Assembly: GCA_964647255.1 (NCBI GenBank)
Contig: CAZYGI010000013.1
Coordinates: forward strand, 1,846 to 65,845
Direction of reading: 5' to 3'
DNA from: an uncultured Anaerolineales bacterium
GTDB taxonomy: Bacteria > Chloroflexota > Anaerolineae > CG2-30-64-16
DNA: 64,000 bases
Under the pieces are notes generated by a model that ran no database searches, had not been told where the DNA came from, and saw nothing but the letters and a program-made list of their open reading frames with translations. Shown here piece after piece: positions 22,808 to 51,667 of this stretch (position 1 is the stretch's first letter; every line of letters begins with the position of its first letter). Position numbers and translations under genes: made by a program.

Positions 22808-22841
22808 CACGCCGCCGCGCCCTCCCCCGATTTCGATCCGC

Positions 22842-25367
22842 ATGGGTCTCTCGCCCTCAGCGGAACCCCGATCTGCATCCGAATCAAGGATGACCTCCAT
22901 GAACAGACCGCTTCTCCGAGATGTCCTGGGCCCGATCATGCTGGCGGGTGGGTTTATCCTGTCGGATCTACTCGCGGATCGCGTGGCCGATGCGTCGCAC
23001 GGCTTCGATCTGCCACACCTTATCCTGAGCGCATCGGTGCTGTTGATCTCTCTCCTTGTGGTGAATCGGGCCGCACGGATCCACCGCCGCACAGAAGCCG
23101 CCTTGATCCAAGCGTGTGATGAGCTAGATGAGGGGATGCGCGAACGCACGACTGAACTTGAGCGGGCTAACGCGGCGCTGCAGGCAGAGATCGGCGAGCG
23201 CAAGCGCATTGAGCTGGCGCTGCGGACAAGCGAGGAGACAGCCCAGGCGCTGATGAATGCCTCGCCCGAGTCTGCGGTGCTCTTCGATGCCCAAGGCGTT
23301 GTCCTGGCATCCAACCAGACCCTCACACGAAGGTTGGGCGTCTCTCCCGAGCGATTGATTGGTTCCCTGGTTTTTGACTTTTACCCACCGGATGCGGCGG
23401 CAACCAGAAGGGCCCAACTCAACGCCATCTTACAGTCCGGTCAATCTCTGCATTTTGTTGATGAACTGGATGGCAGGACGTTCGATAATTATGTTTCGCC
23501 TGTCTTTGATGCCCAGGGCAGGATCATCAGGCTTGCCGCCTTCGGCCATGATATTACCGAACGCTTGCAGTCGGAGGCGCTGCTGCGGAAGACGATCGAA
23601 CGCCTGGAGCTTACGCAAGCCGCCGCAGGAGCCGGGACATGGGATTGGGATATCTCCACCGGCCGCTTCACGTGGTCGTCAAAGATGTTCGAACTCTTCG
23701 GCCTGGATGAACGGACCGCGGACGCCTCGCTTGAGGTCTGGCAATCTGTGCTGCATCCCGACGACCGCGAGATGGCCGAGAGGCGGATGACTCTGGCGTT
23801 GGAGCAGCACTGCGACCTGGTGAGCGAATATCGGATCGTCCTGCCAGATGGAAACAGCCGCTGGATCAGTGCACTGGGAAAGGGTAGCTATGATACCCAG
23901 GACCAGCCCATCCGCATGAGTGGAATCTGCCTCGACATCACCGATCGCATGCGCGCCGAGGCTAGAATCCAGCACCTGTCCTCTTTTCCGCAGTTGAACC
24001 CCAACCCTGTCCTGGAAGTAAGCGCCGATGGGACGATCACGTTCCGCAATCCTGGAGCCGTGAAAATCTTAGAAGAGCTCGGCCTGGGGGACGATGCTCG
24101 CGTATTCCTGCCCGGCGACATGGAAGCGATCCTGGAGTATCTAATGCAGGGCAGGGAAGCTCACTTCTTGCGCGAAGTGCAACTGGGTGGCGCGATCTTT
24201 GCCGAGTCAGTTATCGTGATCCCATCCTCCGGCGTGGTGCGCCTTTATGGCTTCGAAATCACCCAGCGCGTGCGTGCAGAAGCGGCGCTGCGTGTGAGCG
24301 AGGAGAAGTACCGTCTGCTCTTCGAGAACATGGCAGAGGGCTTCGCACTGTACGAACTGCTGTATGATGAACAGGGCAACCCGGCGGATTGGCGGATCCT
24401 GGAGGTGAACGCCGCCTATGAGCACCATACCGGCGTTGCCCGCGACCGCATTGTGGGCAGACGCATCAGCGAGATCTTCCCTGCTGCGCTGCTTGAGTAT
24501 TTGCCGCGCTTCGCGGCCGTGGTCGCCACTCAGAGGCCTTCCGAGATTGAGACGTACGCAACAGCCATCGGCCGCCATCAGCGCGTCAGCACATTCCCCG
24601 CAGGCGGTCAGCGCTTTGCCAGCATTATCGAAGACATCACCAAGCGCAAGCAGTCGGCAGAAGCGTTGCTCTCGGCGCAAGCCGCGCTCGCCGTGAACGC
24701 TCAGCGACAAAGCGCACTGGAGGAACGGCAGCGCCTGGCGCGCGAGCTGCACGACTCGGTCTCGCAGACGCTCTACGGCATCTCGCTGGGCGTGCATACC
24801 GCGCTGACCCTGTTCGACACGAATAGAGCCAAGGTGCTGGAGGCGTTGAACTACACGCTCTCCTTGGCCCATGGCGGACTTGCGGAAATGCGCGCCCTGA
24901 TCTTCGAACTGCGACCTGAGTCACTGGAAATGGACGGTCTGGCGGTTGCACTAACCAGGCAGGCTGAGGTCGTGCGGGCTCGCCAGGACGTCGAAGTTGA
25001 GCTGAGCCTGTGTGATGAACCGGACGTGCCGCTTGAAGTCAAAGAGGCGGTGTATCGCATCGCCCAGGAGGCGCTCCAAAACGCGATCAAGCACGCGCAT
25101 GCCGACCGGATGACCATCCGCCTGACGCGCGAGCCGGATGGTCTCAGGCTCGAAATTCACGACAACGGCATCGGCTTTGACCCCACGGCCACATATCCCG
25201 GGCACTTGGGACTGCGCTCGATGCGCGAGCGCGCTGCAAAAGTGGGCGGCACACTGGACATCGTCAGTGCTCCGAACCACGGCGCGCAAATCTGGGTGCA
25301 CATCCCTGTTACCGCTCCGTCCCACGCTGACGCGCCCATCCCGGAAGCTGGTCTGACAGGGATGTGA
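22842..25367 (+). CDS. multi-PAS sensor histidine kinase (HisKA_3 + HATPase_c)
   Basis: The track ORF starts at 22431, but its first ~137 codons overlap the regulator gene out of frame. The first plausible ATG after the regulator stop is 22842 (alternatives 22890 and 22899). Two TM segments, several PAS-like blocks, an H-box ARELHDSVSQTLYGISL and an ATPase block IHDNGIGFD...GLRSMRERA. Confidence 0.85.
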   Translation: MGLSPSAEPRSASESRMTSMNRPLLRDVLGPIMLAGGFILSDLLADRVADASHGFDLPHLILSASVLLISLLVVNRAARIHRRTEAALIQACDELDEGMRERTTELERANAALQAEIGERKRIELALRTSEETAQALMNASPESAVLFDAQGVVLASNQTLTRRLGVSPERLIGSLVFDFYPPDAAATRRAQLNAILQSGQSLHFVDELDGRTFDNYVSPVFDAQGRIIRLAAFGHDITERLQSEALLRKTIERLELTQAAAGAGTWDWDISTGRFTWSSKMFELFGLDERTADASLEVWQSVLHPDDREMAERRMTLALEQHCDLVSEYRIVLPDGNSRWISALGKGSYDTQDQPIRMSGICLDITDRMRAEARIQHLSSFPQLNPNPVLEVSADGTITFRNPGAVKILEELGLGDDARVFLPGDMEAILEYLMQGREAHFLREVQLGGAIFAESVIVIPSSGVVRLYGFEITQRVRAEAALRVSEEKYRLLFENMAEGFALYELLYDEQGNPADWRILEVNAAYEHHTGVARDRIVGRRISEIFPAALLEYLPRFAAVVATQRPSEIETYATAIGRHQRVSTFPAGGQRFASIIEDITKRKQSAEALLSAQAALAVNAQRQSALEERQRLARELHDSVSQTLYGISLGVHTALTLFDTNRAKVLEALNYTLSLAHGGLAEMRALIFELRPESLEMDGLAVALTRQAEVVRARQDVEVELSLCDEPDVPLEVKEAVYRIAQEALQNAIKHAHADRMTIRLTREPDGLRLEIHDNGIGFDPTATYPGHLGLRSMRERAAKVGGTLDIVSAPNHGAQIWVHIPVTAPSHADAPIPEAGLTGM

Positions 25368-26049: not shown

Positions 26050-26143
26050 CGCTTTGTTCTGATGCCGCAAGGCAATCAAGATCCGATGGCAGGTACGAAC
26101 TTTTCTTGCCGGATTGCATGATTTCTGCAAAAGGAGATTAACG

Positions 26144-27796
26144 ATGCCCGTTGCCCCCCCTGTGACCTATCCTGGAGTGTATATTCAGGAGGTGGAAAGC
26201 CCGGTGCACACCGTGACACCGGTGGCAACATCCACCACGGCGTTTGTCGGCCGGGCGAAGCGCGGCCCCGATGGCAGCCCCGACGGTGGTGGGCCGGAGC
26301 TCATCCACAGCTTCGGCGACTTCCAACGTATCTTCGGCGGTTTGTGGGCCGATAGCCCCCTGGGCTACGCGGTCAACGATTTCTTCCTCAACGGCGGCAG
26401 CGATGCAGTGATCGTCAGGCTGCACAATGGCGCCAAGGCCGCAACCATCACCATGCCGGCGGGTGGCGGCACCGTTGCGCTTCAGGCCAAGTCCAAGGGC
26501 GCATGGGGGAACTCCCTACGCGTGCGTGTGGAGTACGTTTTGCCTGCAAACACATCCTCAACCGATCCTACCTACAAGATGGTTGCGGACAATGTAGCCA
26601 CGCCGCTCGGCGTCACCGATCCGACGGAGCTATTCAACTTGTATGTGTATGATGGTGACAGCGGCGCGACAGAGAAACTGACCAACATCACCGCGAACAC
26701 GGGCGTGCGCACCGTCAACAAGGTGCTGGCCCATGAATCGAGCCTGGTGGCGTGCGCCGATCCCGATATGTCGTGGGCCATCAAACCAGACCCCCACGCG
26801 AAGCTGGTCAAGCCGACCAAGCCCTGGTGGGATGATGACAACGCGGGCGGCTTCACTCCGGCGGATGCCAACAGCGGAAGTGATGGCGGCGCGCTGCAAC
26901 CGACCGATTACACCGGCGATCCGGGAAAGAAAACCGGCATCTATGCACTGGAAAATGCGGATATCTTCAACCTGCTGGTAATCCCCCCCGACACCGCCAA
27001 CGGCGATACGCCTACCGACCCTGTATTGACCACGGCGCTGGCCTACTGCGAGCGCAAACGCGCCATCCTCCTGGTGGATCCGCCCTCTGGATGGGCCCGC
27101 AAGGATAACGCCAAGAACGGCGTGCCGATCAGCGGCCTTGGCCCCAGCGCAAACGCCGCCATCTACTTCCCGCGCATCCGGAAGGCCAACCCGCTGCACC
27201 AAAACCAGATCGAGACCTTCGTGCCCAGCGGCACGGTGGCCGGCATCATTGCGCGCACCGATCTGCAGCGGGGTGTCTGGAAGGCGCCGGCGGGGCTCGA
27301 AGCAACCATGAGCGGTGTGGCGTCGCTGACCGTGCCGCTCACCGACGCCGAGAACGGCGAGCTGAACCCGCTTGGCATCAACTGCCTGCGCACTCTGCCC
27401 GCGGCCGGGAACGTCGTTTGGGGCGCACGCACCACGGTCGGAGACGACCGGCTGTCGTCGCAGTGGAAATATCTGCCGGTCCGGCGCACGGCCCTCTGGA
27501 TCGAGGAAACGCTCTATCGCAGCTCCCAGTGGGCGGTCTTCGAGCCCAACGACGAACCGCTCTGGTCGGCCTTGCGGCTGAATATCGGCGCATTCATGCA
27601 GGGCTTGTTCCGCCAGGGCGCATTCCAGGGCCAATCGCCCAAGGACGCCTATTTCGTCCAGTGCGACAGCACCACCACGACCCAGGCCGACATTGACCGG
27701 GGCATCGTCAATATCGTGGTCGGCTTTGCGCCGCTGAAACCCGCCGAGTTCGTCGTGATCTACATCCAGCAGATCGCCGGCAACATCGCGACATGA
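26144..27796 (+). CDS. contractile tail sheath protein (Afp2-4/Cis2-like)
   Basis: Start at MPVAPPVTYPGVYIQEVES (ATG 26144, AAGGAG 7 nt upstream). The PGVYI.E N-terminal hallmark and the C-terminal GINCLRTLP..GNVVWGARTT...KPAEFVVI block are typical of phage/eCIS sheath proteins. Confidence 0.9.
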   Translation: MPVAPPVTYPGVYIQEVESPVHTVTPVATSTTAFVGRAKRGPDGSPDGGGPELIHSFGDFQRIFGGLWADSPLGYAVNDFFLNGGSDAVIVRLHNGAKAATITMPAGGGTVALQAKSKGAWGNSLRVRVEYVLPANTSSTDPTYKMVADNVATPLGVTDPTELFNLYVYDGDSGATEKLTNITANTGVRTVNKVLAHESSLVACADPDMSWAIKPDPHAKLVKPTKPWWDDDNAGGFTPADANSGSDGGALQPTDYTGDPGKKTGIYALENADIFNLLVIPPDTANGDTPTDPVLTTALAYCERKRAILLVDPPSGWARKDNAKNGVPISGLGPSANAAIYFPRIRKANPLHQNQIETFVPSGTVAGIIARTDLQRGVWKAPAGLEATMSGVASLTVPLTDAENGELNPLGINCLRTLPAAGNVVWGARTTVGDDRLSSQWKYLPVRRTALWIEETLYRSSQWAVFEPNDEPLWSALRLNIGAFMQGLFRQGAFQGQSPKDAYFVQCDSTTTTQADIDRGIVNIVVGFAPLKPAEFVVIYIQQIAGNIAT

Positions 27797-28341: not shown

Positions 28342-28872
28342 ATGCCTGCTCCAGAGTTCACGGTCAACACGTACCGATACGATCCGTCCAAGAAGTTCAA
28401 ATTTCGCGTCAATTGGTATAACAATTATTTGGCCGGCATCAGCAAGGTGGGCGGCCTGACGCGCACCACGCAGGTCGTCAGCCACCGCGAGGGCGGCGAC
28501 CCCAGCAGCAGCCGCAAATCGCCGGGCCAGACCGACTATGGGCCGATCACCCTGGAACGCGGGGTCACGCACGATAAAGACTTCGAGCAGTGGGCCAATA
28601 AGGTCTGGGCCTACGGCAACGCGGCCGGCCAGGAGGTCTCGCTCAAGGATTTCCGCAAGGACATCATCATCGAGCTGTACAACGAGGCCGGGCAGAAGGT
28701 GGTCGCGTACAACGTCCATCGCTGCTGGGTGTCGGAGTTCACGGCGCTGCCCGAGCTGGATGCCGGCGGCAACGCGGTCGCGATCCAATCCATCACGCTG
28801 CAACATGAAGGGTGGGAACGTGACACCTCGGTGGTTGAGCCGACGGAACCGAACTATTTGCTGCCATCGTAA
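28342..28872 (+). CDS. tail tube protein (T4 gp19-like / Afp1-Cis1-like)
   Basis: KFKFRVNW...ISKVGGLTRTTQVVSHREGGDPSSSRKSPGQTDYGPITLERGVTHD..FEQWA matches the conserved phage-tail-region tube family pattern. RBS AAAGGAGG. Confidence 0.85.
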   Translation: MPAPEFTVNTYRYDPSKKFKFRVNWYNNYLAGISKVGGLTRTTQVVSHREGGDPSSSRKSPGQTDYGPITLERGVTHDKDFEQWANKVWAYGNAAGQEVSLKDFRKDIIIELYNEAGQKVVAYNVHRCWVSEFTALPELDAGGNAVAIQSITLQHEGWERDTSVVEPTEPNYLLPS

Positions 28873-28893: not shown

Positions 28894-29631
28894 ATGCGTG
28901 TGATGCGTACACTCTCTGCCCTGGACCTGGTGCGCGCGTGGGAGGCAGGCCGCGATCGCCATCCGGTGGATCGCGCGCTGCTGCTGCTGGCGCTCGCGTA
29001 CCCCGAGCTCACGCGAGACCAGCTGGCCGCGCTCACCATCGGACAGCGCAACGGCCGGCTCCTGGCGCTGCGCCAGCAGCTTCTGGGCGCGCACTTGAAC
29101 GCGTACGCCGAATGTCCCCAATGCCGCGAAGCGCTGGAATTCTCCATCAACGCGCCATCGCTCCGGTCGCCCGAACCCGCAGAACTGATGTTCACCCTGG
29201 CCATTGATGGATTGGAGGTGCGCCTCCGCCTGCCCGACAGCCTGGATCTGGCGGCCATCAGCGATGTGCCGGGGCCGGATGAGGCCCGACGCCAGCTGTT
29301 CGAGCGCTGTGTGCTGGAGGCCCGGCAAGGCGAGACGCCGGTCGCGGCCGCGGCGTTGTCCGATGAGATCGTGACGGCTTTGGCTGACGCCATGGGCGAA
29401 CGCGATCCGCAGGCGAGCCCGCGCTTCCGATTGAACTGCCCGGCCTGCGGGCACGGCTGGGCCGCCCTGTTCGACATCGTCTCGTACTTCTGGACCGAGA
29501 TCAACGCCTACGCGCAGCGCCTGCTGGGTGAGGTGCATCACCTGGCACGGGCCTATGGCTGGCGCGAAGCCGATATCCTGGCGATGAGCTCAGCTCGGCG
29601 CCAATTCTATCTGAACCTGGCGGGCGAATGA
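28894..29631 (+). CDS. conserved-position hypothetical protein with a CxxC...CxxC zinc-ribbon-like pair
   Basis: ECPQCREAL and NCPACGHGW motifs. Its stop overlaps the next start (ATGA at 29628). Function unknown; I think similar proteins occur after the tube gene in other eCIS loci, but I cannot verify that. Confidence 0.6.
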   Translation: MRVMRTLSALDLVRAWEAGRDRHPVDRALLLLALAYPELTRDQLAALTIGQRNGRLLALRQQLLGAHLNAYAECPQCREALEFSINAPSLRSPEPAELMFTLAIDGLEVRLRLPDSLDLAAISDVPGPDEARRQLFERCVLEARQGETPVAAAALSDEIVTALADAMGERDPQASPRFRLNCPACGHGWAALFDIVSYFWTEINAYAQRLLGEVHHLARAYGWREADILAMSSARRQFYLNLAGE

Positions 29632-31817
29632 ACGATTTTCTGGCCGCGATCGTGACGGCAGTGCAGACGCCCCCGGCTTCACCGATGATCCAGCCGTCCT
29701 TGGCGCCGCACTTTGCGCTCATGCCGGACATCGCCGGCGACAGCATGGCCGTCGGGGGCGATGTCGGTGACCCGCTGTTTGAGGCGGTCGGGATGGCCAA
29801 CGGCGCCTTACCGGGTGCGCCGGATGTTATCCCACCGCTGCTGCCGCTCGGCGTCTATGATGATGACACGGCGCACTTGCCGTGGTCGGAGGCTGAGGCG
29901 CCGGCGTTTGCGGCCGAACCCGGGGACCCGGCCAGTCCGGAGGCTCCGAGCCGATCCACAATCAGCCAACCGGTCTTCGCTGATGCCAGCGCGGATGAAA
30001 CATCTCGCGCCGCCACGATAGATGAATCCGCTCGTAGGAGCGACTTCAGTCGTTCGGCGCAGACCACGGCGGACGAATCCGCTCGTAGTAACGACTTCAG
30101 TCGTTCGGCGCAGACCACGGCGCCTGAAGTCGCTCCTACAAACCGATCCATTTTCAGAGCAGCCAGCCAGGCCTCGCGCGACGCCACAGCAAATGAGAAT
30201 GGACGTCGCAGCTTGCCGCGTTCCGGCGCGAGCCCCGACGTCCCGAACCTCGAAGCTGCTTCACATTCTGGATCAGAACGCTCGCCGCTGTCCGGTTCCG
30301 TTGCAATCACGGACGCTGTTTCAGCGCCGGAGCCGGAGTCCGCGGCGCGCACTGGCGCAACACGGGTGACACCGGGCATTCCACCTGATGCAGACGCGAC
30401 GCGCATCACCGCACAGCCGGTCGTTCCGGCCCCCGCTCACTCGTCATTCGGCACATCTCCCTTGAAGGCGTCCGATGTGGTCGAGCCCGCAGCCGCTAAT
30501 CGGCCGGGCGCAGACGCACCGAAAGCGACCCTCAGGGCGGCAGATGCGCATGGGAGCGCCGGCGCCACGCTGGCTGAAGAGCTCAAACCAGGGCGTACAG
30601 AGCACGAAGTGCAGGCCGGTTCTAAGAGTCATCCTGGCGCCGTTGCGGCTTGGCGGGCGACCGGTGCACCCACACCCGAGAGCCTGTGGGACACCGATCC
30701 CAAGAGAGTTACTTTCGGGATGGAGGCCCTTGTCGGGCGCGCCGCCACGACGGATGAATCCGCTCGTAGTAACGACTTCAGTCGTTCGGCGCAGACCACG
30801 ACGGACAAATCCGCTCGTAGTAACGACTTCAGTCGTTCGGCGCAGACCACGGCGCCTACAGATGCAACGGGTGCGGTGATGCCCGACGAGGTGAAACCAA
30901 GAGCCCTACCAGACTCCCAAACGAACGCGCCCCCCAGGCTTGCGGCTGGCGCACCGCTCGAGGCCACGCGGGCGACGCGCAGCCGAATCCGGCCGGCAGG
31001 ATCCCGCCGCGCCGGGGTGACCCCAGTCCAGGCGCAGGCAGGCGAGGCCATACGCCACGCCGCTCCCGGGCACACCGCTGAGGCTGCGAGCCCCACCTCG
31101 GAGGCCGATGCGAAGCCAACGACATCGTCACTACCCTTCGTAAGTATGGCGCGACCCAGGAGTGAGATACCGCGAGCGACTTTAGCGGAGACAGGCGCGG
31201 CGGCCGCCGAGAACGTAGCGCAAGCTGGCAGCTTGCGCCACTCGCCCGTTCTCAGAGCAGCCGCCCATGCCGTGAGCGGCGCCACCGACGATGAAGCCAG
31301 ACGGGGCAGCTCCCTGCGTGCCGGGGCCAGACCTGCCAACCAGATGTTCAGAGCCGCCAATGAAAGCGGGATGCGAGTGGATGCAGGGCCCATGAACGAC
31401 TCGGACACTGCCCGCCTTGATCCGCGCCGTCCGCGTCCCATGCTCAAAGCGGTGCGTGTCCCTGAGCAGACCGCACCGGTGACAGCCGAGGCGAGGGACA
31501 GCACCCCGGAGCACTTCAACGCGCTGGTCCGCCAGACGGAGCGCGCCGCCACGAGCGGGAGTGTGCGGACCCCATCCATCATCCGGCCTGTGCCGGAAGC
31601 ACCTGCAGCGGTCACAGGCCGGACCGCGGCCTCGGGTCGGTCACAGGTCCAGGAGCTGGCCCCGGCCGAGTCATTGCCCACCATTCGGGTGACCATCGGC
31701 CGCATCGAGGTGCGGGCCCGCAGTACCGAAGCAGCCCCTGTGCCGGCTCGTCCCATGCCGCGCCCCCCGATGTCACTCGACGCGTACCTCGGCCGCGCCG
31801 CAAGAGGCAACCGATGA
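29628..31817 (+). CDS. putative tail-length tape-measure-like protein (Afp14/Cis14-like), low complexity with internal tandem repeats
   Basis: 729 aa, Ala/Pro/Arg/Ser-rich, with four 17-aa DESARSNDFSRSAQTTA units. The C-terminal LPTIRVTIGRIEVRA motif is what I recall from eCIS tape-measure candidates. Translationally coupled on both sides. Confidence 0.5.
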   Translation: MNDFLAAIVTAVQTPPASPMIQPSLAPHFALMPDIAGDSMAVGGDVGDPLFEAVGMANGALPGAPDVIPPLLPLGVYDDDTAHLPWSEAEAPAFAAEPGDPASPEAPSRSTISQPVFADASADETSRAATIDESARRSDFSRSAQTTADESARSNDFSRSAQTTAPEVAPTNRSIFRAASQASRDATANENGRRSLPRSGASPDVPNLEAASHSGSERSPLSGSVAITDAVSAPEPESAARTGATRVTPGIPPDADATRITAQPVVPAPAHSSFGTSPLKASDVVEPAAANRPGADAPKATLRAADAHGSAGATLAEELKPGRTEHEVQAGSKSHPGAVAAWRATGAPTPESLWDTDPKRVTFGMEALVGRAATTDESARSNDFSRSAQTTTDKSARSNDFSRSAQTTAPTDATGAVMPDEVKPRALPDSQTNAPPRLAAGAPLEATRATRSRIRPAGSRRAGVTPVQAQAGEAIRHAAPGHTAEAASPTSEADAKPTTSSLPFVSMARPRSEIPRATLAETGAAAAENVAQAGSLRHSPVLRAAAHAVSGATDDEARRGSSLRAGARPANQMFRAANESGMRVDAGPMNDSDTARLDPRRPRPMLKAVRVPEQTAPVTAEARDSTPEHFNALVRQTERAATSGSVRTPSIIRPVPEAPAAVTGRTAASGRSQVQELAPAESLPTIRVTIGRIEVRARSTEAAPVPARPMPRPPMSLDAYLGRAARGNR
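30021..30122 (+). repeat. 2 x 51-bp in-frame tandem repeat (pair 1) inside the tape-measure-like gene
   Basis: Copies at 30021-30071 and 30072-30122, near-identical. Each contains the palindrome CGACTTCAGTCG. Confidence 0.9.
30753..30854 (+). repeat. 2 x 51-bp in-frame tandem repeat (pair 2), same unit as 30021..30122
   Basis: Copies at 30753-30803 and 30804-30854. The unit GA(T/C)(G/A)AATCCGCTCGTAGTAACGACTTCAGTCGTTCGGCGCAGACCACG is shared with pair 1, 732 bp away. Confidence 0.9.
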
Positions 31818-33004
31818 GCAACGCGCGCGCGATCGCTGTCGTCACCGCGGCCCTGGCCAGCATCTTGACATCGGTGGCCAGGACGGTCCTGTCCGGCACC
31901 GTCATCCATGTGGGGCGGCCAGAGAAACTCCCGGAGCCGGACCGTGATCAGCCCGGCATCAACGTCTTTCTCTTCCAGGTGAGCATCAACGATACGCTGC
32001 GTAACGTGGACCTGCCGATGCGTATGGCCGACGGCCGTCTGGTGCAGCGTCCTACCCTGGGCCTGGATCTGATCTATCTCCTGACCTTTCATGGCCCCGG
32101 CCTTGTGCCTGAGCTGCTGTTGGGACGCACGCTTAGCGCGCTTCACGCCCGTCCGGCGCTGTCACCGGAGCTGGTGGCCAACGCCATCCAACAAAAGGGC
32201 AACGTACCCGGCGATCGCTATCTGCAGGAGACGGACATTGATCAAGCCAAGGGGATCCGTTTCGAGTCGTACCCACTTTCTCTGGAGGAGCTTTCCAAGC
32301 TGTGGTCCGTCTTCTTCCAGATGCCTTACGCCCTCTCGCTGGCCTACCGGGCGACCGCCGTGATGGTCGAGGCTGAGGATTTGCCGGTGCCTGCGCTGCC
32401 GGTGCGTGACATCAGCGCGCGGTCCGGCGCCGGCGGCATCCCGCAGATAGAGCAGATCCTGCCGCCGCTGGTCGAGCCCGACACCCCCATCGTGCTGCGT
32501 GGCCGTAACTTGAGCGCGGCTGACACCTGGATCCAGTTCAGCGGGTCCGCGACGCCCGTGGCGCCACAGGTAACCGCGGATGGCTTGCAGGTCACGCTGC
32601 CCAATGACCTGGCTGCGGGCGCGACGTCCGCGTCGCTGGTCGACGCGACCGGGCGGCCGCTGTCCAACGCCGCGCCGTTTATGCTCCACCCGCGCGTCAT
32701 CAGCGCTGACGTCGCCAACAGGCTGCTCACGGTGAACCTGGTGCCGCAGGTGCAAGCGGGGCAGCGCGTGCGGCTGCTGCTGAATATGGTCGGGAGCCGT
32801 GAGGCGTACACAATCGATGTACCGAACGTGACGCAGTCTACCGGCCAAATTGCGATCCCCGTCCCTGCGCTGCAATCCGGCGGCAGCTACCTGGTGCGCG
32901 TGCAGGTGAATGGCGCGGAGAGCCAGCTCACCACCGTCCCGCCGCCTGATAAGCCGCACAGCCCGGCTCAGCCGTACAACTTCCCGATGGTAACCCTCCC
33001 ATGA
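31814..33004 (+). CDS. DUF4255 (Pvc16/Afp16-like) tail terminator/cap protein with C-terminal IPT-like domain
   Basis: The N-terminus MSNARAIAVVTAALASILTSV...INVFLFQVSIN is typical of the Pvc16 N-terminal domain. The C-terminal PIVLRGRNL...LQVTLP is Ig/IPT-like. ATGA overlaps at both ends. Confidence 0.75.
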   Translation: MSNARAIAVVTAALASILTSVARTVLSGTVIHVGRPEKLPEPDRDQPGINVFLFQVSINDTLRNVDLPMRMADGRLVQRPTLGLDLIYLLTFHGPGLVPELLLGRTLSALHARPALSPELVANAIQQKGNVPGDRYLQETDIDQAKGIRFESYPLSLEELSKLWSVFFQMPYALSLAYRATAVMVEAEDLPVPALPVRDISARSGAGGIPQIEQILPPLVEPDTPIVLRGRNLSAADTWIQFSGSATPVAPQVTADGLQVTLPNDLAAGATSASLVDATGRPLSNAAPFMLHPRVISADVANRLLTVNLVPQVQAGQRVRLLLNMVGSREAYTIDVPNVTQSTGQIAIPVPALQSGGSYLVRVQVNGAESQLTTVPPPDKPHSPAQPYNFPMVTLP

Positions 33005-34989
33005 GCGCGACGACGGCGGCCAACTGGGCCGAAGCCAACTGGCAACATCTGACGAACGCGCTGGAAACGGTGCGCTACGCGTTGCTGCGCCATACCAGGA
33101 AGTACGACATTCCAGAGTCCGCGGGTTCGCCGGCCGCCGGCATGGAACTGTCACCGCCACCTGCCCTGGAGACCGTAGTCAAGTTATTCGGCCTTTCGGC
33201 CTTTGAGCGGGCCGTGCTGCTGCTGTGCGCCGGCTGCGAGCTGGATTCGCGCTTCGCGACCCTGTGCGCGACGATTCATGGGGATCCGCACCAGTCCTAT
33301 CCAACCTTCAGCGTGGCGCTGGCCGCCTTGCCCGACCCCCAGTGGTCGGCAGTGACCCCGGCCGCGCCGCTGCGCGACTGGCAACTGATCCACGTGGAGC
33401 CGGGCGCTAGCCTGACGCGCAACACCCTGCGGATTGACGAGCGCATCCTGCACTACCTGGCCGGCGTTTCGCACCTGGATGCGCAGCTCGCCGGGCTGGT
33501 CCAGCCGCAGGTCCCGCCCGAAAAACTGGCGCCGTCGCACTGGGCCCTGGCCCGCGAGATCGCAGCCACCTGGTCGCAGGCTGCAGGCCAGGGCGCCTTG
33601 CCTGCGATGCAATTATGTGGGCCCGAGGTCGCAGGCAAGCGCGATATCGCCGCGGCAGCCTGCCGCTTGCTGGGCCTGCCGCTCTACCGCATGCCGGCCG
33701 CGGCGCTGCCCACCCGTCCGGGTGAGCATGACCAGATGCTGCGCCTGTGGCAGCGGGAATACCTGCTGGACAACCACGTGCTGCTGTTGGACTGCGACGA
33801 CAGCGACCCGCACGACAAGGCGCTGGAGAGCGCGATCGCACAGATCGTCGAGGCGACGCCCTACATGCCGCTGCTGCTGACCGGCCGCGAACGCCGCGGC
33901 CCGTGGCAGCGCCCGGTGCTCACCTTCGACGTGGTCAAGCCTACCCCGGCCGAACAGCGCCAGGTCTGGGTGGCGTTGTTGGGGCAGGATGCAGAGCTGT
34001 TGGCCCCCCAGGTGGAGCAGATCGTCAGCCAGTTCAACCTGGATGCGCCTGCCATCGCCGCGGCGCACAGCGGCGCGCTGGGGCTGATGGAAGACGCGAT
34101 ACGCAGCGGCGATCGGCCTGCCGAGGAAAAGCTAGGGGACGCGCTCTGGCAGGTCTGCCGGCGGCAGGCCCGCCCCCGCCTGGACGACCTCGCGGCGCGG
34201 ATTGACACCGTCGCCGGCTGGGATGACCTGGTGCTGCCGGACGCCGAACTGGAGATCCTGCACGAGATCGCGGCCCAGGTGCGGGGACGCAGCCAGGTGT
34301 ACGAAAGGTGGGGCTTCCAGGCCAAGAGCCGCCGCGGCCTGGGGATCAGCGCGTTGTTCGCGGGCGCCAGCGGGACGGGCAAGACCCTGGCGGCCGAGGT
34401 GCTGGCCAACGAGCTGCGGCTGGACCTCTACCGCATTGACCTCAGCGCCATCGTCAGCAAGTGGGTGGGGGAGACTGAGAAAAACCTGAGCCGCGTGTTT
34501 GACGCCGCCGAGGCGGGGGGTGCGATCCTGCTCTTCGACGAGGCCGATGCGTTGTTCGGCAAGCGCGGCGAGGTCAAGGACAGCCACGACCGCTACGCCA
34601 ATATCGAGATCAGCTATCTGTTGCAGCGTATGGAATCGTATCGCGGGCTGGCGATCCTGACCTCCAACCTGAAGGAATCGCTCGACAGCGCCTTTGCCCG
34701 GCGCATCCGTTTCACCGTAACGTTTCCTTTTCCCGATGCGGCCGAGCGCGCGGCCATCTGGCAACGGGTGTTTCCGGCCGCAACGCCCACGAAGGGACTG
34801 GACCCGACCAAACTGGCGCGGCTGGATCTGCCGGGCGGCTCGATCCGCAACATCGCGCTCAACGCCGCGTTCCTGGCCGCGGGCGCGGGCGAGCCGGTGC
34901 GCATGGCGCATCTGCTGCGCGCGGCGCGGCGCGAATATGCCAAGCTGGAACGGCCGATCAACGCCGCGGACGTCAAGGACTGGCTGTGA
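33001..34989 (+). CDS. AAA+ ATPase (Afp15/Cis15-like)
   Basis: Walker A GASGTGKT, Walker B ILLFDEADALFGKR, and second region of homology LAILTSNL...AFARRIRF in the C-terminal half. Confidence 0.9.
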   Translation: MSATTAANWAEANWQHLTNALETVRYALLRHTRKYDIPESAGSPAAGMELSPPPALETVVKLFGLSAFERAVLLLCAGCELDSRFATLCATIHGDPHQSYPTFSVALAALPDPQWSAVTPAAPLRDWQLIHVEPGASLTRNTLRIDERILHYLAGVSHLDAQLAGLVQPQVPPEKLAPSHWALAREIAATWSQAAGQGALPAMQLCGPEVAGKRDIAAAACRLLGLPLYRMPAAALPTRPGEHDQMLRLWQREYLLDNHVLLLDCDDSDPHDKALESAIAQIVEATPYMPLLLTGRERRGPWQRPVLTFDVVKPTPAEQRQVWVALLGQDAELLAPQVEQIVSQFNLDAPAIAAAHSGALGLMEDAIRSGDRPAEEKLGDALWQVCRRQARPRLDDLAARIDTVAGWDDLVLPDAELEILHEIAAQVRGRSQVYERWGFQAKSRRGLGISALFAGASGTGKTLAAEVLANELRLDLYRIDLSAIVSKWVGETEKNLSRVFDAAEAGGAILLFDEADALFGKRGEVKDSHDRYANIEISYLLQRMESYRGLAILTSNLKESLDSAFARRIRFTVTFPFPDAAERAAIWQRVFPAATPTKGLDPTKLARLDLPGGSIRNIALNAAFLAAGAGEPVRMAHLLRAARREYAKLERPINAADVKDWL

Positions 34990-35035: not shown

Positions 35036-36004
35036 ATGCGTGCAATCATGAGGTCTGTGAGCGGACGTGCAACGGGGACAGTGAGATCATCTGCCGCCCC
35101 GTCATCATTACATCCTGCCGGGCCTGGCTTCTCTGTCCGTCAGGGTCACACAATGACGAACCTAGGGAATTTCACCACGCGCTGGGCCGATGAACCGGAC
35201 GTTCGACGATCTGCCGGCAGGGCGTTCACAAGCGTGAATGGGAACATGCGGGAAATTCCGCACCAGGCGGACCGGGAACGCCCGAGCTCGATGGCTCAAA
35301 GCCTGGCGCTGCGGCACATCCAGCGCGCGAATCAACGCGCCGGACGCAGCAACTCGATGGTGCTTTACCGTCACGGCTCGATCACGCCGCTCACGCATCC
35401 TGACGAAGAGGCCGCCGAAGTCGGAGGCGAATTGAACCTGAACGAGCAGACGAGCCCGCATCTGCGCGACTTCGCTGAGCTGACCCACCAGTCTGGACTA
35501 CCAGGAATCGCAGTGATGGCGCCAGTGGCGCCGCGCAACTACCCGACGGCGCACCTACCGGGTGAGCTCAACGAGAAGCCGGATCGCACGCAGGCCGCCT
35601 TGCTCCAGGCCGCGCAGCAGACGGGCATCCCGGTCCACGCGGTCGGCCACAGTTGGGGCGGAGCGGAGACGGTCAACGTGTTGAGCGGGCAGCCGGAGGA
35701 GGTGCAGCAGAACACGACCCTCCATTTCGCCGGCGGCGCCACCTGGCCGACGCGCCAGGAGGAGCTGAAGAAGAATCTGGCAGGCCTCCGATCTCCCGTC
35801 AATCTGTACAAGGGCGCCACGGATCCGGTCACCCATTTCGGCGGGGCCTATGACTATTTCAGTGGTCGGCCGGTGACAGAGCGACCGGAGGTGGAACTGC
35901 ACAGAACCGCGGGCGGACATGGTTTCGCTCAGAGCTACCTCCCAAAGGTGAGCGAAGAGATCGCAAAACGTGAGGAAAGTAAAAAAGTTGGCGGGAAGGA
36001 TTAG
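35036..36004 (+). CDS. alpha/beta-hydrolase-like protein (GHSWGG nucleophile elbow); candidate CIS payload
   Basis: GAGGAG RBS 8 nt upstream. VHAVGHSWGG (Ser codon 35651-35653) fits the G-x-S-x-G motif. Downstream GATDPV and GGHGF are possible acid/His positions. The N-terminal ~100 aa look disordered. Confidence 0.55.
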   Translation: MRAIMRSVSGRATGTVRSSAAPSSLHPAGPGFSVRQGHTMTNLGNFTTRWADEPDVRRSAGRAFTSVNGNMREIPHQADRERPSSMAQSLALRHIQRANQRAGRSNSMVLYRHGSITPLTHPDEEAAEVGGELNLNEQTSPHLRDFAELTHQSGLPGIAVMAPVAPRNYPTAHLPGELNEKPDRTQAALLQAAQQTGIPVHAVGHSWGGAETVNVLSGQPEEVQQNTTLHFAGGATWPTRQEELKKNLAGLRSPVNLYKGATDPVTHFGGAYDYFSGRPVTERPEVELHRTAGGHGFAQSYLPKVSEEIAKREESKKVGGKD

Positions 36005-36010
36005 GCAATC

Positions 36011-36604
36011 ATGAGATTACTTCGATCTCCCATCGTGAGGGCAGGTGCTGTGGGGGCCACTGCGGCAACGGCAGGATACCAGGCCATGCAACAACGTGAG
36101 GCTGTACCCGCCGGCGCCGGGCATCGAACCGACCAGATGCGGGCCGGCAATGTGCCCACTGACCGAAGCGTCACGGGTTTTGCCAAGAACTGGGTATGGG
36201 ATGATCCCACGCATCAGATCCAGGATCAAGGCCGGCAACAGATTGCTGACGCCACGTCGCGGAGCGATACATTCTATGGCTATCTGGTCGCTCGCACCAA
36301 CCGCGCACTCGACAGAAGCGGTTACGGCTTACCCGGGCACTTGGCAAGACCCATCGCTCAAAACGTTGGAGACGAATCCACGGGCAAAATCACCCAGGCT
36401 CAGGCGCACTGGAATGAGGCGAAGGGATTTGCACACCATTATTTCAAAGAGGGATTGTGGAGAGGCAACAATGAAGCTCGAGATCCCATTTACCTAACCG
36501 GCGCGGCGATGAACACCCTTGGGGCGGGCGGTTCCGCCGCGGCGAGCGCTCTCGCCAGGGGATACAAAGCTGATCCGGATAACAATGAGCCGCCGTGGCT
36601 ATAA
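36011..36604 (+). CDS. hypothetical 197-aa protein
   Basis: An ORF with coding-like composition directly after the hydrolase-like gene. No domain recognised. Confidence 0.45.
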   Translation: MRLLRSPIVRAGAVGATAATAGYQAMQQREAVPAGAGHRTDQMRAGNVPTDRSVTGFAKNWVWDDPTHQIQDQGRQQIADATSRSDTFYGYLVARTNRALDRSGYGLPGHLARPIAQNVGDESTGKITQAQAHWNEAKGFAHHYFKEGLWRGNNEARDPIYLTGAAMNTLGAGGSAAASALARGYKADPDNNEPPWL

Positions 36605-36640
36605 TTTGCGCAGATCCGTTATCGGCATGAGGGAGTGAGA

Positions 36641-36982
36641 ATGGACCGGCAGGCCAACCTGGCTTTACGCATCGAGCAGCTCATCCTGCACGACCTGCCC
36701 TACAGCCAACGCAGCCGCGTGGCCGCAGCCATCGAGGCGGAGTTGACCCGCCTGCTGACCGAGCGGGGCATCCCCGAGGGGTGGAGTGGCGACATGCCGC
36801 CCATCAACGCCGGCCCGGTGCACGTCAGCCCGCACCTGTCGGCGGAGACCATAGGCCGGCAGGTGGCGGAAACGGTCTACGCAGGATTTGCCGGCGCCGC
36901 GCGCAGCACAGCGCCGGCCGGAGATCGAGCCGGGTCCGGACAGTTAATGTCGACGGCGCATCCCGGCGGGGAAAATCACTGA
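36641..36982 (+). CDS. hypothetical 113-aa protein
   Basis: The track ORF starts at GTG 36635. ATG 36641 has GGGAG 5 nt upstream. No domain recognised. Confidence 0.45.
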   Translation: MDRQANLALRIEQLILHDLPYSQRSRVAAAIEAELTRLLTERGIPEGWSGDMPPINAGPVHVSPHLSAETIGRQVAETVYAGFAGAARSTAPAGDRAGSGQLMSTAHPGGENH

Positions 36983-36992: not shown

Positions 36993-37649
36993 ATGCCTAC
37001 CTACTTGCCGGGACCACGCCTTCTGAAGGGCGCCATCGTCGCGATCGACCTGGCGACCAACCAGCGCAGCGCGATCGTCTTCCAGTATAACCCGGAGACG
37101 CTGAGCCGCTCCCTGCAGCCGCAGATGGCCGGCGGCGACCAGGGACAGCGCTCGCCGGCAGTGCGCTTCACCGGCGCGCCGGTGGAAACGGTCACGCTCG
37201 ACGTGATGATTGACGCCACCGACCAGTTGGAGGCGGGCGACGCGCAGGCCGCCGGCACGGGCATCTACCCCCAGCTCACCGCACTGGAGATGCTGCTCTA
37301 CCCGCAAAGCCAGCAGGTCATCCAGAACAACCAGGTGCTCAGCCAGGGCAGCATCGAGATCGGTCCCTACGTGGCGCCGCTGACGCTGTTCATCTGGGGC
37401 GGCAACCGGGTCCTGCCCGTCCTGCTGACCGGGCTGAACAGCCGCGAGGAGCTGTTCGACAATCACCTGAACCCCATCCGGGCCACGGTGACCTTGAACA
37501 TGCGCGCGCTCAGCTACTCGGACCTGGACAGCAGCCACAAAGGCTATCATCTTTTCCTGGCCTACCAACAGGCCAAGGAAGTCATGGCCCGCCGGGGACT
37601 GGCCAGCGATCCCGACAAGGCTATCGGCGTCAACATCAACCGCCTGTAA
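36993..37649 (+). CDS. CIS tube-initiator/adaptor protein (Afp7/Pvc7 N-terminal-domain-like)
   Basis: LKGAIVAIDL..SAIVFQYNPETLSRSL..VRFTGAPVETVTLDVMIDATD resembles the conserved tube-protein N-domain seen in LysM-containing eCIS proteins. Confidence 0.6.
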   Translation: MPTYLPGPRLLKGAIVAIDLATNQRSAIVFQYNPETLSRSLQPQMAGGDQGQRSPAVRFTGAPVETVTLDVMIDATDQLEAGDAQAAGTGIYPQLTALEMLLYPQSQQVIQNNQVLSQGSIEIGPYVAPLTLFIWGGNRVLPVLLTGLNSREELFDNHLNPIRATVTLNMRALSYSDLDSSHKGYHLFLAYQQAKEVMARRGLASDPDKAIGVNINRL

Positions 37650-37658: not shown

Positions 37659-37955
37659 GTGTTCGATCATACCAGCCGTTACTACTACCTGGAAGATAGG
37701 ATCTACGAGACCCCAGACGGCCGCCAGATCGCCTACAAGGCCCGGCGCTTCCTGCCGCAGGGTCAGGCGCTGCCCCTGCTGGGCGAGGCCACCGCACGTG
37801 TGGAAGAACGCCTGGACCTGATTACCGCCCGCTCCTTGGGCGACCCGGCGCTGTTCTGGCAGATTTGCGATGCCAACAACGCCCTGGATCCTTTTGACCT
37901 GGTAGATGAGGCCGGCCGCGTCCTGCGCGTGCCGATTCCCCAGTTCGTGAAGTGA
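37659..37955 (+). CDS. LysM-like / phage tail protein X-like small protein
   Basis: GTG start with TAAGGAG 5 nt upstream. ARSLGDPALFWQICDANNALDPFDL...GRVLRVP resembles a LysM/gpX fold signature. Confidence 0.55.
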   Translation: MFDHTSRYYYLEDRIYETPDGRQIAYKARRFLPQGQALPLLGEATARVEERLDLITARSLGDPALFWQICDANNALDPFDLVDEAGRVLRVPIPQFVK

Positions 37956-49694: not shown

Positions 49695-49750
49695 TTGCAG
49701 GGATGCGCCGCTGCGCGGTCAGGCATTTTCCACAGACAATGAAGGTAACA

Positions 49751-51655: not shown

Positions 51656-51667
51656 GGAGGATGGATC

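What the first reader, a model, noticed from the sequence alone, without database searches (positions are those of the whole stretch)
35036..36982. Three non-structural genes interrupt the structural operon; the first is a serine-hydrolase-like candidate payload
Seen in sequence: three ORFs with no tail-protein signature lie between the AAA+ ATPase gene and the tube-initiator gene.

The first (322 aa) has a GHSWGG nucleophile elbow (35645-35662), with later Asp and His candidates. Its first ~100 residues look disordered. The next two (197 and 113 aa) are unrecognisable.

Established knowledge: eCIS cargo proteins are usually encoded inside or next to the locus, and several are loaded through disordered N-terminal regions. 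Lipase/esterase-type alpha/beta hydrolases are common secreted toxins.

Inference: this may be a hydrolase effector together with a chaperone, immunity protein or assembly factor.
Basis: partly seen in the sequence, partly recalled or inferred. Interest (0 to 1): 0.65.

Follow-up and report, generated by a model that had tools for sequence, protein, structure and literature searches.

The report
Variable cargo slot in an injection-system operon
Between the loading ATPase and the baseplate genes of a phage-tail-like injection system lie an optional orphan esterase/lipase-type enzyme that is probably an injected payload, a fast-evolving partner gene of unknown role, and a small unannotated protein that is a conserved companion of the ATPase across this whole group of systems.

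Summary
The three ORFs are real, co-oriented, tightly packed and under purifying selection. ORF1 (35036-36004) is an alpha/beta-hydrolase. It has HG113-114, GHS206WGG, Asp263 and His295 in canonical order, all invariant in its homologues. Its model matches only esterases, lipases and thioesterases. By sequence it is an orphan: one cluster among 1.84 billion representatives.

In 14 related loci the same ATPase-to-tube-initiator slot holds DUF4157 (eCIS_core) cargo-type proteins, some with toxin domains. A system whose ATPase is 94% identical lacks ORF1 altogether. ORF1 is therefore optional and sits where cargo sits, so a payload role is plausible but unproven.

ORF2 persists without ORF1 and evolves very fast. 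That argues against a dedicated immunity protein or chaperone for ORF1.

ORF3 is not payload. It belongs to an unannotated ~83-residue family present in nearly every related locus, almost always immediately after the ATPase, and it co-diverges with the ATPase. It is a candidate loading or assembly cofactor.

ORF2 was not modelled and no biochemistry exists.

The parts
33001..34989 (+). AAA+ ATPase (Afp15/Pvc15/Alg15 type); upstream boundary of the slot and the presumed cargo loader
   Evidence: Pfam AAA E 5.5e-25 and WHD E 2.7e-18. 94% identical to the ATPase of L041.
35036..36004 (+). ORF1, 322 aa: orphan alpha/beta-hydrolase and candidate eCIS payload
   Evidence: AF2 model shows 8 strands with alternating helices. 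Foldseek PDB gives 168 hits at E<=1e-3 and the top 50 are all alpha/beta-hydrolases. BFVD hits are likewise esterases and alpha/beta-hydrolases. PHROG esterase/lipase E 5.4e-4. Only its own cluster is found among 1.84e9 representatives. dN/dS 0.22.
35036..35152 (+). ORF1 codons 1-39: basic, poorly conserved, low-confidence N-terminal leader; candidate loading sequence
   Evidence: Shine-Dalgarno GAGGAG before Met1 in the window and AGGAGG before Met1 in L001. Frame kept without indels in three lineages. Codon-position differences 7/10/17 and dN/dS 0.30. pLDDT 30-34. Net charge +5 and disorder-promoting fraction 0.65, like the cargo N-termini of relatives. Some gene callers instead start at Met40.
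35372..35377 (+). His113-Gly114, oxyanion-hole HG motif directly after strand 108-113
   Evidence: Invariant in all homologues; position relative to the strand from the model.
35645..35662 (+). GHSWGG nucleophile elbow; Ser206 codon at 35651-35653
   Evidence: G204, H205, S206, W207 and G208 are invariant. The motif lies between strand 200-205 and helix 207-217. Weak Pfam Hydrolase_4 match over residues 193-224.
35822..35824 (+). Asp263, candidate catalytic acid after strand 255-260
   Evidence: Invariant; topology from the model.
35918..35920 (+). His295, candidate catalytic base after strand 286-291
   Evidence: Invariant within the GGHGF motif; topology from the model.
36011..36604 (+). ORF2, 197 aa: fast-evolving protein of unknown fold with a basic, disorder-like N-terminus; possible second cargo
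   Evidence: Homologues occur only in L001, P0014/P0015, L041 and L042. It is present without ORF1 in L041 and L042. It is 48% identical where the neighbouring ATPase is 94% identical. dN/dS 0.41. GC3 0.606 against 0.78-0.92 for structural genes. No Pfam, NCBIfam, PHROG or PDB match. No hydrophobic segment.
36641..36982 (+). ORF3, 113 aa: member of an unannotated ~83-residue family linked to the eCIS ATPase; conserved core is residues 1-87 (36641-36901) and the tail is variable
   Evidence: A family HMM hits 17 of 19 genome loci that have the ATPase upstream. In all 17 metagenome loci it lies directly after the ATPase. Divergence tracks the ATPase: r 0.855, and partial r 0.70 controlling for the tube initiator, against 0.23 the other way round. 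No Pfam or PDB sequence match. Model pLDDT 64, helical, with no fold match.
36993..37649 (+). Tube-initiator (Afp5-like CIS_tube) gene; downstream boundary of the slot
   Evidence: PF19266 E 5.9e-11. Used to retrieve 22 related loci.

Best explanation
[quoted passage not shown] The closest relatives suggest the host is an Anaerolineae bacterium. The slot lies between the AAA+ loading ATPase and the tube-initiator gene.

ORF1 is a small serine alpha/beta-hydrolase with no large lid insertion (oxyanion HG113-114, Ser206, Asp263, His295). It has a basic, disordered N-terminal leader of about 40-60 residues. I infer that the ATPase recognises this leader, threads the protein into the tube lumen and that it is delivered on contraction. 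In the target it would act as an esterase, lipase or thioesterase-type effector.

ORF2 is most likely a second, rapidly diversifying cargo or co-effector rather than a partner specific to ORF1.

ORF3 is not payload. It is a lineage-conserved small protein encoded with the ATPase and evolving with it. I infer that it works as a cofactor or adaptor of the ATPase in cargo loading or assembly.

Shown here: the fold and catalytic motif order of ORF1; the variability of the slot; that ORF1 is optional; the conservation and ATPase linkage of ORF3. Inferred: loading, delivery, toxicity, substrate, and the roles of ORF2 and ORF3.
For: Locus identity: sheath, gp19 tube, Pvc16 cap, AAA+, CIS_tube, Phage_base_V spike, PAAR, gp25 and Baseplate_J are all present.

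ORF1 fold: AF2 gives pTM 0.68 and an 8-strand beta-alpha-beta topology, with Ser206 after strand 200-205, Asp263 after 255-260 and His295 after 286-291. Foldseek PDB gives 168 hits at E<=1e-3, and the top 50 are all esterases, lipases or thioesterases. BFVD gives the same picture. PHROG esterase/lipase E 5.4e-4. The triad residues and HG are invariant.

Slot is for cargo: in 14 related loci the slot holds 22 proteins with eCIS_core/DUF4157. Some carry Ntox44 or Peptidase_C26 domains. Slot length ranges from about 15 nt to about 8 kb. DUF4157 proteins Cgo1 and Cgo2 are demonstrated lumen cargos (PMC8894135). Their loading needs a disordered N-terminal region and the AAA+ protein Alg15, but not DUF4157 (bioRxiv 10.64898/2026.05.27.728243).

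ORF1 is optional: L041 (ATPase 94% identical) and L042 lack it.

ORF1 and ORF2 N-termini are basic and rich in disorder-promoting residues, like cargo N-termini and unlike structural proteins. Their GC3 is atypical.

Precedent: the PGAP1-type alpha/beta-hydrolase EAT17 is toxic to yeast (PMC11297309).

ORF3: plus the window-versus-L002 mosaic. There, TMP, cap, ATPase and ORF3 are 46-61% identical, while the flanking tube and baseplate genes are 85-95% identical.
Against: There is no experimental evidence for loading, toxicity or enzyme activity.

ORF1 lacks DUF4157 and the N-terminal motifs shared by cargos in related loci.

The ORF1 model is only moderately confident (mean pLDDT 62.8 from 5 sequences), and the triad geometry could not be measured.

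No curated alpha/beta-hydrolase profile reaches its threshold: Hydrolase_4 scores 14.3 bits against a cut-off of 27.

Some gene callers start ORF1 at Met40, which would remove most of the proposed leader.

N-terminal similarity between ORF1 and ORF2 is marginal.

ORF2 was not modelled.

The proposed role of ORF3 rests on gene linkage and co-divergence in 11 non-independent loci. Its model is low-confidence and matches nothing.
Confidence: 0.6

Rival explanations
1. ORF1 and ORF2 form a toxin-immunity (or toxin-chaperone) pair. ORF2 would neutralise or stabilise the hydrolase in the producer cell, as Tli proteins do for T6SS Tle lipases.
For: ORF2 starts 6 nt after the ORF1 stop codon. The two genes are adjacent in three lineages: the window, L001 and the P0002/P0015 contig. 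ORF2 evolves fast, as immunity genes often do. The short motif F..xW.{0,2}D[DE]P is intact in ORF2 only where ORF1 is present.
Against: L041 and L042 keep ORF2 and ORF3 but have no ORF1 and no remnant of it, although orphan immunity genes are known to persist. ORF2 has no signal peptide or hydrophobic segment. Its N-terminus resembles cargo leaders.
Confidence: 0.15
2. ORF1 is not injected. It is a producer-side enzyme, for example a lysis or release esterase comparable to mycobacteriophage LysB, or an enzyme that matures or modifies the particle.
For: eCIS particles are released by producer-cell lysis (PMC8894135). Phages encode alpha/beta-hydrolase esterases, and the ORF1 model matches several phage esterases.
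Against: ORF1 sits in the slot that holds cargo-type proteins in relatives, not in a lysis cassette. No holin-like or membrane protein lies nearby. It has a basic, disordered leader typical of cargo. A 94%-identical system does without it.
Confidence: 0.1
3. All three ORFs are structural or assembly components of the particle, such as a plug, an initiator or an adaptor, and none is payload.
For: The genes lie inside the structural operon with no promoter-like or terminator-like sites. ORF3 is conserved in nearly all related loci. Small CIS proteins such as the Alg6 plug long escaped annotation (PMC8894135).
Against: ORF1 and ORF2 are absent from 17 of the 18 related genome loci whose slot is covered; only L001 has them. 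ORF1 is also missing from L041 and L042. ORF1 is an enzyme fold. No sequence or fold match to any solved CIS protein was found for ORF1, ORF2 or ORF3. For ORF3 alone this reading stays open, at roughly 0.3.
Confidence: 0.07
4. ORF1 and ORF2 are passengers acquired by horizontal transfer, with no functional link to the injection system.
For: Their GC3 is atypical (0.72 and 0.61) compared with neighbouring genes. Their distribution is patchy.
Against: They are packed tightly in the operon without their own signals. They are under purifying selection. They are found only in this eCIS context in every contig recovered.
Confidence: 0.05

Closest known systems
[quoted passage not shown]
   Same: The genes are encoded inside the CIS cluster. 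They have a disordered N-terminal region followed by a folded effector part. In related loci the equivalent slot holds DUF4157 proteins of exactly this architecture. A dedicated AAA+ ATPase is encoded alongside.
   Different: ORF1 and ORF2 lack DUF4157 and the associated N-terminal motifs. No loading data exist. The small ATPase-adjacent ORF3-type protein is not mentioned among the AlgoCIS components in the passages I read.
EAT17 of Mycetohabitans rhizoxinica (PGAP1-like alpha/beta-hydrolase eCIS-associated toxin, toxic to yeast) and the T6SS effector TplE, which that paper names as similar (PMC11297309)
   Same: It is an alpha/beta-hydrolase serine enzyme associated with a contractile injection system and lacking DUF4157. 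It is precedent that this fold is used as injected payload.
   Different: ORF1 has no PGAP1 (PF07819) match at E<=0.1 and no detectable sequence relative outside its own cluster. Its substrate is unknown.
Hormone-sensitive-lipase-family and small carboxylesterases (EstDL136 6aae, EstE1 2c7b, PestE 2yh2, EST2 1evq)
   Same: These are the best structural neighbours (Foldseek E 4e-6 to 1e-4, probability 1.00). They share the strand order, the nucleophile elbow and an HG-type oxyanion motif.
   Different: Sequence identity is 11-18% and TM-scores only 0.35-0.54. ORF1 has no large insertion after strand 227-232. It has an extra helix (85-101) between strands 2 and 3, and two low-confidence loops (116-135 and 164-180).
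PVC payloads Pdp1 and Pnf with N-terminal packaging domains (as summarised in bioRxiv 10.64898/2026.05.27.728243; Pvc15 dependence is from my own knowledge)
   Same: These cargos also lack DUF4157 and rely on a disordered N-terminal region.
   Different: [quoted passage not shown] There is no sequence similarity.
T6SS effector adaptors and chaperones (Tap/Tec DUF4123, Eag DUF1795); functional analogy for ORF3 only, recalled from general knowledge and mentioned in PMC11297309
   Same: They are small accessory proteins encoded next to cargo genes and needed for loading rather than for building the machine.
   Different: No sequence or fold similarity was found. ORF3 is linked to the ATPase rather than to individual cargos, because it is present even where the slot holds no cargo (L025, L031).

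Membership tests
Alpha/beta-hydrolase fold serine hydrolases (ORF1) | Central, mostly parallel 8-stranded sheet with connecting helices in the canonical order | tested here: met
   AF2 strands at 62-67, 70-74, 108-113, 157-161, 200-205, 227-232, 255-260 and 286-291, with intervening helices. There are 168 PDB fold hits at E<=1e-3 and the top 50 all have this fold. BFVD agrees. The model is of moderate confidence (pLDDT 62.8).
Alpha/beta-hydrolase fold serine hydrolases (ORF1) | Nucleophile elbow Sm-x-Nu-x-Sm between strand 5 and the following helix | tested here: met
   G204-H-S206-W-G208 lies between strand 200-205 and helix 207-217 and is invariant in the family.
Alpha/beta-hydrolase fold serine hydrolases (ORF1) | Acid after strand 7 and histidine after strand 8, in the order Ser-Asp-His; oxyanion residues after strand 3 | tested here: met
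   Asp263, His295 and His113-Gly114 are invariant and sit at the expected topological positions.
Alpha/beta-hydrolase fold serine hydrolases (ORF1) | Triad residues within hydrogen-bonding distance in three dimensions | not testable with these tools
   Model coordinates are not exposed.
Alpha/beta-hydrolase fold serine hydrolases (ORF1) | Significant match to a curated sequence family above its threshold | tested here: not met
   The best Pfam hit is Hydrolase_4 at 14.3 bits against a cut-off of 27. NCBIfam gives nothing. PHROG esterase/lipase gives E 5.4e-4. The exhaustive HMMER search finds only ORF1's own cluster.
eCIS cargo / eCIS-associated toxin (ORF1, ORF2) | Encoded within or next to an eCIS operon | tested here: met
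   They lie inside the operon between the ATPase and the tube initiator.
eCIS cargo / eCIS-associated toxin (ORF1, ORF2) | Accessory distribution: variable between otherwise similar systems, at a position where other systems carry cargo | tested here: met
   The slot holds DUF4157 proteins in 14 loci and is empty in others. ORF1 is absent where the ATPase is 94% identical.
eCIS cargo / eCIS-associated toxin (ORF1, ORF2) | Disordered, hydrophilic N-terminal loading sequence | tested here: inconclusive
   pLDDT is below 50 for ORF1 residues 1-59. Net charge is +5 and +4, and the disorder-promoting fraction is 0.65-0.68, like cargos of related loci. The ORF1 start codon is ambiguous (Met1 or Met40). 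No dedicated disorder predictor was run.
eCIS cargo / eCIS-associated toxin (ORF1, ORF2) | DUF4157/eCIS_core domain in the protein or in a neighbouring gene (frequent marker, not obligatory) | tested here: not met
   There is no eCIS_core hit anywhere in the window or L001. hhalign of ORF1 residues 40-112 against eCIS_core gives probability 0.4%.
eCIS cargo / eCIS-associated toxin (ORF1, ORF2) | Physical presence in particles, ATPase-dependent loading, and toxicity to a target | not testable with these tools
   These need purification with mass spectrometry, mutants and expression assays.
Core structural eCIS components, Afp1-16 equivalents (ORF1-3) | Present in essentially all related loci | tested here: not met
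   ORF1 and ORF2 occur only in the closest relatives. ORF3-like genes are in 17 of 19 genome loci, so this feature is nearly met for ORF3 alone.
Core structural eCIS components, Afp1-16 equivalents (ORF1-3) | Sequence or fold homology to a solved CIS or phage-tail protein | tested here: not met
   PDB sequence and profile searches find no CIS protein. The ORF3 fold search has a best E of 3.3, but that model is low-confidence, so for ORF3 this is weak negative evidence.
T6SS Tle lipase / Tli immunity pair (ORF1+ORF2) | Immunity gene strictly coupled to the toxin gene and exported to the compartment where the toxin acts | tested here: not met
   ORF2 occurs without ORF1 in L041 and L042. ORF2 has no signal peptide or hydrophobic segment; the maximum 19-residue Kyte-Doolittle average is 0.93.

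The most novel reading that the evidence does not exclude
The ORF3-like family (~83-residue core, no Pfam model) is a previously unrecognised cofactor of the eCIS AAA+ loader. It could be the missing specificity or coupling factor between cargo leaders and the ATPase. Under this reading, cap, ATPase, ORF3 and cargo form an exchangeable loading cassette that recombines as a unit between otherwise near-identical particles. That would explain how a non-DUF4157 orphan hydrolase can be adopted as payload.
Probability: 0.3. Interest if true: 0.7.

Novelty: new member of a known kind. Interest (0 to 1): 0.5.

Why it matters
How eCIS particles choose and load cargo is an open question, and it limits their re-engineering as protein-delivery tools. 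This locus offers three things.

First, a compact payload candidate without DUF4157, with a clear catalytic site. It sits in a slot that normally carries DUF4157 cargos. That makes it a natural experiment on what a loader needs to recognise.

Second, presence/absence variation of that payload between systems whose ATPases are 94% identical.

Third, a small, widely conserved, unannotated gene tied to the loader ATPase. Pfam-based surveys could not have seen it, and it can be tested directly by deletion. It occurs in related loci attributed to Anaerolineae, cyanobacteria, Methanothrix, Acidobacteriota and Proteobacteria.

If ORF3 proves irrelevant, what remains is an ordinary but new effector candidate.

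Tried and rejected
1. ORF1 residues 40-107 as a degenerate DUF4157/eCIS_core domain ('AGRAFT', 'LALRHIQ'). An HMM built from 10 slot proteins gives no hit to window ORF1 at E<=10. hhalign probability is 0.4%. The model instead places these residues as strands 1-2 plus a helix of the hydrolase fold. Rejected.

2. The ORF3 N-terminal segment as a mimic of the conserved tape-measure C-terminus ('IRVTIGRIEVRA'). hhalign aligns 10 columns at probability 0.4%. Rejected.

3. ORF3 as the AlgoCIS cap adaptor or plug. Alg16B is a 284-residue protein with an Ig-like domain and a beta-barrel. No PDB sequence or fold match was found. The Afp6 position after the tube initiator is taken by the 98-aa gene at 37659-37955, which matches a phage baseplate-wedge family. 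Not supported.

4. A shared N-terminal loading sequence between ORF1 and ORF2. Shuffle tests give p = 0.05, 0.013 and 0.41 in three lineages, and hhalign gives E 0.02 with probability 2.3%. Only the short motif F..xW.{0,2}D[DE]P is shared. Left as unexplained.

5. Signal peptides or membrane segments in ORF1 and ORF2: none found.

6. Word-indexed homologue searches gave only 3, 2 and 4 clusters for ORF1, ORF2 and ORF3. The exhaustive profile search for ORF1 added nothing.

7. The diverse ORF3 alignment A5 was too variable for the metagenome scan. The tighter alignment A6 worked.

The ORF2 profile against PDB sequences gave nothing.

9. The literature I read (PMC8213781, PMC8894135, PMC8894136, PMC11297309, and the 2026 PROCIS preprint) does not describe an ORF3-like protein.
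Full report
**1. Observation**

The window carries a complete extracellular contractile injection system (eCIS) operon on the + strand. Its parts are:
- sheath, 26114-27796
- gp19-type tube, 28342-28872
- a baseplate-hub-like gene, 28894-29631
- a 729-aa tape-measure-like gene ending in the conserved 'IRVTIGRIEVRA…SLDAYL' motif, 29628-31817
- Pvc16-type cap, 31814-33004
- AAA+ ATPase, 33001-34989
- CIS_tube initiator, 36993-37649
- spike, PAAR, gp25 and Baseplate_J genes, followed by further baseplate or fibre genes up to about 52444.

The three ORFs of the finding lie exactly where stated: 35036-36004 (322 aa), 36011-36604 (197 aa) and 36641-36982 (113 aa). The intergenic gaps are 46, 6, 36 and 10 nt. 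No promoter-like or terminator-like site was found between 32900 and 37800. GHSWGG occupies nt 35645-35662, with Ser206 as the third residue.

All three are genuine coding genes. Against the syntenic locus L001, dN/dS is 0.22, 0.41 and 0.37, compared with 0.11 for the tube initiator and 0.23 for the cap.

**2. ORF1 is an alpha/beta-hydrolase**

By sequence ORF1 is an orphan:
- No Pfam family passes threshold. Hydrolase_4 scores 14.3 bits over the elbow region, against a cut-off of 27.
- There is no NCBIfam hit and no PDB sequence hit.
- The word-indexed search found three clusters.
- A profile search of 1.84 billion representatives found only ORF1's own cluster.

The fold is nevertheless clear. 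The AlphaFold2 model (5 sequences, mean pLDDT 62.8, pTM 0.68) has strands at 62-67, 70-74, 108-113, 157-161, 200-205, 227-232, 255-260 and 286-291, alternating with helices. Foldseek finds 168 PDB chains at E<=1e-3, and the top 50 are all carboxylesterases, lipases or thioesterases. The viral structure library gives the same picture. PHROGs gives an independent 'esterase/lipase' match at E 5.4e-4.

His113-Gly114 follows strand 3, Ser206 follows strand 5, Asp263 follows strand 7 and His295 follows strand 8. All are invariant in the family. The triad geometry could not be measured because the coordinates are not exposed. No large insertion follows strand 227-232. The substrate cannot be inferred.

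**3. The N-terminus of ORF1**

Residues 40-107 are the most conserved part of the protein (dN/dS 0.14) and are modelled as the first two strands plus a helix. Only residues 1-59 are low-confidence.

Codons 1-39 do behave as coding sequence:
- The frame and length are kept in three lineages.
- Differences by codon position are 7, 10 and 17.
- dN/dS is 0.30.
- Shine-Dalgarno sites precede Met1 in both the window and L001.

Some gene callers nevertheless start at Met40. The leader is basic (+5) and rich in disorder-promoting residues (0.65). This resembles the N-termini of the cargo-type proteins in related loci (0.53-0.75) and differs from the structural proteins (0.40-0.50).

**4. What the slot is**

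A genome scan with the tube initiator returned 22 loci, with 94-50% identity to the query. Their record titles assign them to Anaerolineae, cyanobacteria, Methanothrix, Acidobacteriota and Proteobacteria. The core genes are syntenic, but the distance from the ATPase stop to the tube-initiator start varies. It is about 15 nt in L016, 71 nt in L019 and up to about 8 kb in L009 and L018.

In 14 loci the slot encodes 22 proteins with an eCIS_core/DUF4157 domain. Some carry C-terminal Ntox44 or Peptidase_C26 domains. DUF4157 proteins are the demonstrated lumen cargos of AlgoCIS (PMC8894135) and the strongest marker of eCIS-associated toxins (PMC8213781, PMC11297309). A 2026 preprint reports that their disordered N-terminal domain and the AAA+ protein Alg15 are needed for loading, while DUF4157 itself is not (10.64898/2026.05.27.728243).

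ORF1 and ORF2 occur only in the closest relatives. Neither the window nor L001 encodes any eCIS_core protein. Their GC3 (0.72 and 0.61) is below that of the surrounding structural genes (0.78-0.92).

The most telling case is L041. Its ATPase is 94% identical to the window's, but its slot contains only an ORF2 homologue (48% identical) and ORF3. L042 has the same arrangement. ORF1 is therefore dispensable for the machine and occupies the position used for cargo. This is the strongest support available here for a payload role. It remains an inference.

**5. ORF2**

ORF2 has no family, PDB or PHROG match and no hydrophobic segment. It has a basic, disorder-like N-terminus and diverges very quickly. 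It persists without ORF1 in two lineages. That argues against a dedicated immunity protein or chaperone for the hydrolase, although an orphan immunity gene cannot be excluded.

ORF1 and ORF2 share a co-linear invariant motif, F..xW.{0,2}D[DE]P, at residues 46-54 and 57-66. Overall N-terminal similarity is only marginal. The motif is degenerate in ORF2 of the two lineages that lack ORF1. I cannot explain this. I rate 'second cargo or co-effector' as the most likely role, with low confidence.

**6. ORF3**

A profile built from the slot ORFs finds an ORF3-like gene in 17 of the 19 genome loci that have the ATPase upstream. Its ~83-residue core has the pattern 'N.EL.IEEL.L.G.P…R…AA.E.EL.RL…G.P…G.Q.A…Y.G'. 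Only two Thermoanaerobaculia loci lack it, and a third has a truncated copy.

A metagenome scan retrieved 17 more loci, and in all of them the gene lies directly after the ATPase. In L025 and L031 it is followed immediately by the tube initiator, with no cargo in between. ORF3 is thus a lineage-conserved accessory and not a partner of particular payloads.

Its divergence follows the ATPase (r 0.855; partial r 0.70 controlling for the tube initiator) rather than the tube initiator (partial r 0.23). This comes from 11 loci that are not independent.

The comparison of the window with L002 shows a mosaic. Tube and baseplate genes are 85-95% identical. Tape measure, cap, ATPase and ORF3 are 46-61% identical, and the cargo genes are entirely different. 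This suggests that a cap-ATPase-ORF3-cargo cassette is exchanged as a unit.

The family has no Pfam model and no PDB sequence match. The model of ORF3 is helical but weak (pLDDT 64) and matches nothing. The papers I read describe no such protein, and the main survey of eCIS core genes was Pfam-based. I propose a cofactor or adaptor of the loading ATPase. A small structural or assembly subunit is the main alternative.

**7. Verdict**

The hydrolase assignment is well supported. The payload interpretation is plausible and now rests on comparative evidence, but it is untested. ORF2 is probably not an ORF1-specific helper. ORF3 is a conserved, unannotated companion of the ATPase.

As an effector candidate, ORF1 is a new member of a known kind; alpha/beta-hydrolase eCIS toxins such as EAT17 already exist (PMC11297309). 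The more novel lead is the ORF3 family.

Noticed in passing
window 29628-31817, repeats at 30006-30176 and 30687-30857: The 729-aa tape-measure-like gene carries a 51-nt in-frame unit (17 aa, 'DESARSNDFSRSAQTT…'). It is duplicated in tandem at two sites 630-680 nt apart, giving four copies at 61-95% identity. The unit contains short inverted repeats. It may be a length-modulating duplication or an inserted repeat element.
   Followed up: partly
window 53065-54990 (- strand): A 641-aa protein with a PLD-like domain (PLDc_2, E 2.7e-20) and a weak lamin-tail-domain match lies convergent to the end of the eCIS locus. It could be another phospholipase-type effector or be unrelated.
   Followed up: no
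window versus L002 (whole locus): Mosaic relationship. Tube, baseplate-hub, tube-initiator, spike, PAAR and gp25 genes are 85-95% identical. Tape measure, cap, ATPase and ORF3 are 46-61% identical, and the cargo genes are unrelated. This suggests recombinational exchange of a cap-ATPase-ORF3-cargo cassette.
   Followed up: partly
L005, L008, L023 (Methanothrix MAGs): Archaeal methanogen assemblies carry the same eCIS type (tube initiator 53-54% identical), with ORF3-like genes and DUF4157 cargos. This implies transfer between domains, provided the binning is correct.
   Followed up: no
L008 3979-4236 and 6027-6284: One locus has two ORF3-like genes, each followed by DUF4157 cargo genes. This is a possible duplication of the adaptor-plus-cargo unit.
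   Followed up: no
L009 4397-8416: The 8-kb slot of this cyanobacterial locus also contains several small genes between the DUF4157 cargo and the tube initiator. By eye two of them resemble toxin-antitoxin components: a PIN-like gene at 5477-5878 and a BrnT-like gene at 6009-6314. This was not checked with profiles.
   Followed up: no
window 22431-25367: A 978-aa multi-PAS histidine kinase (HisKA_3/HATPase_c) lies upstream of the sheath gene on the same strand. It is a possible regulator of the locus.
   Followed up: no
window 35171-35197 (ORF1 residues 46-54) and 36179-36208 (ORF2 residues 57-66): The motif F..xW.{0,2}D[DE]P is invariant in ORF1 and in the ORF2 copies that co-occur with ORF1. 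It is degenerate (VAKNYIWNKP, VAKNYVRDKP) in ORF2 of L041 and L042, which lack ORF1. It may be a shared recognition element or a coincidence.
   Followed up: partly
window 49703-52444: The locus ends with a DUF6519 protein (E 1.2e-65) and a 258-aa ORF with no family match. Their role in this eCIS type was not examined.
   Followed up: no
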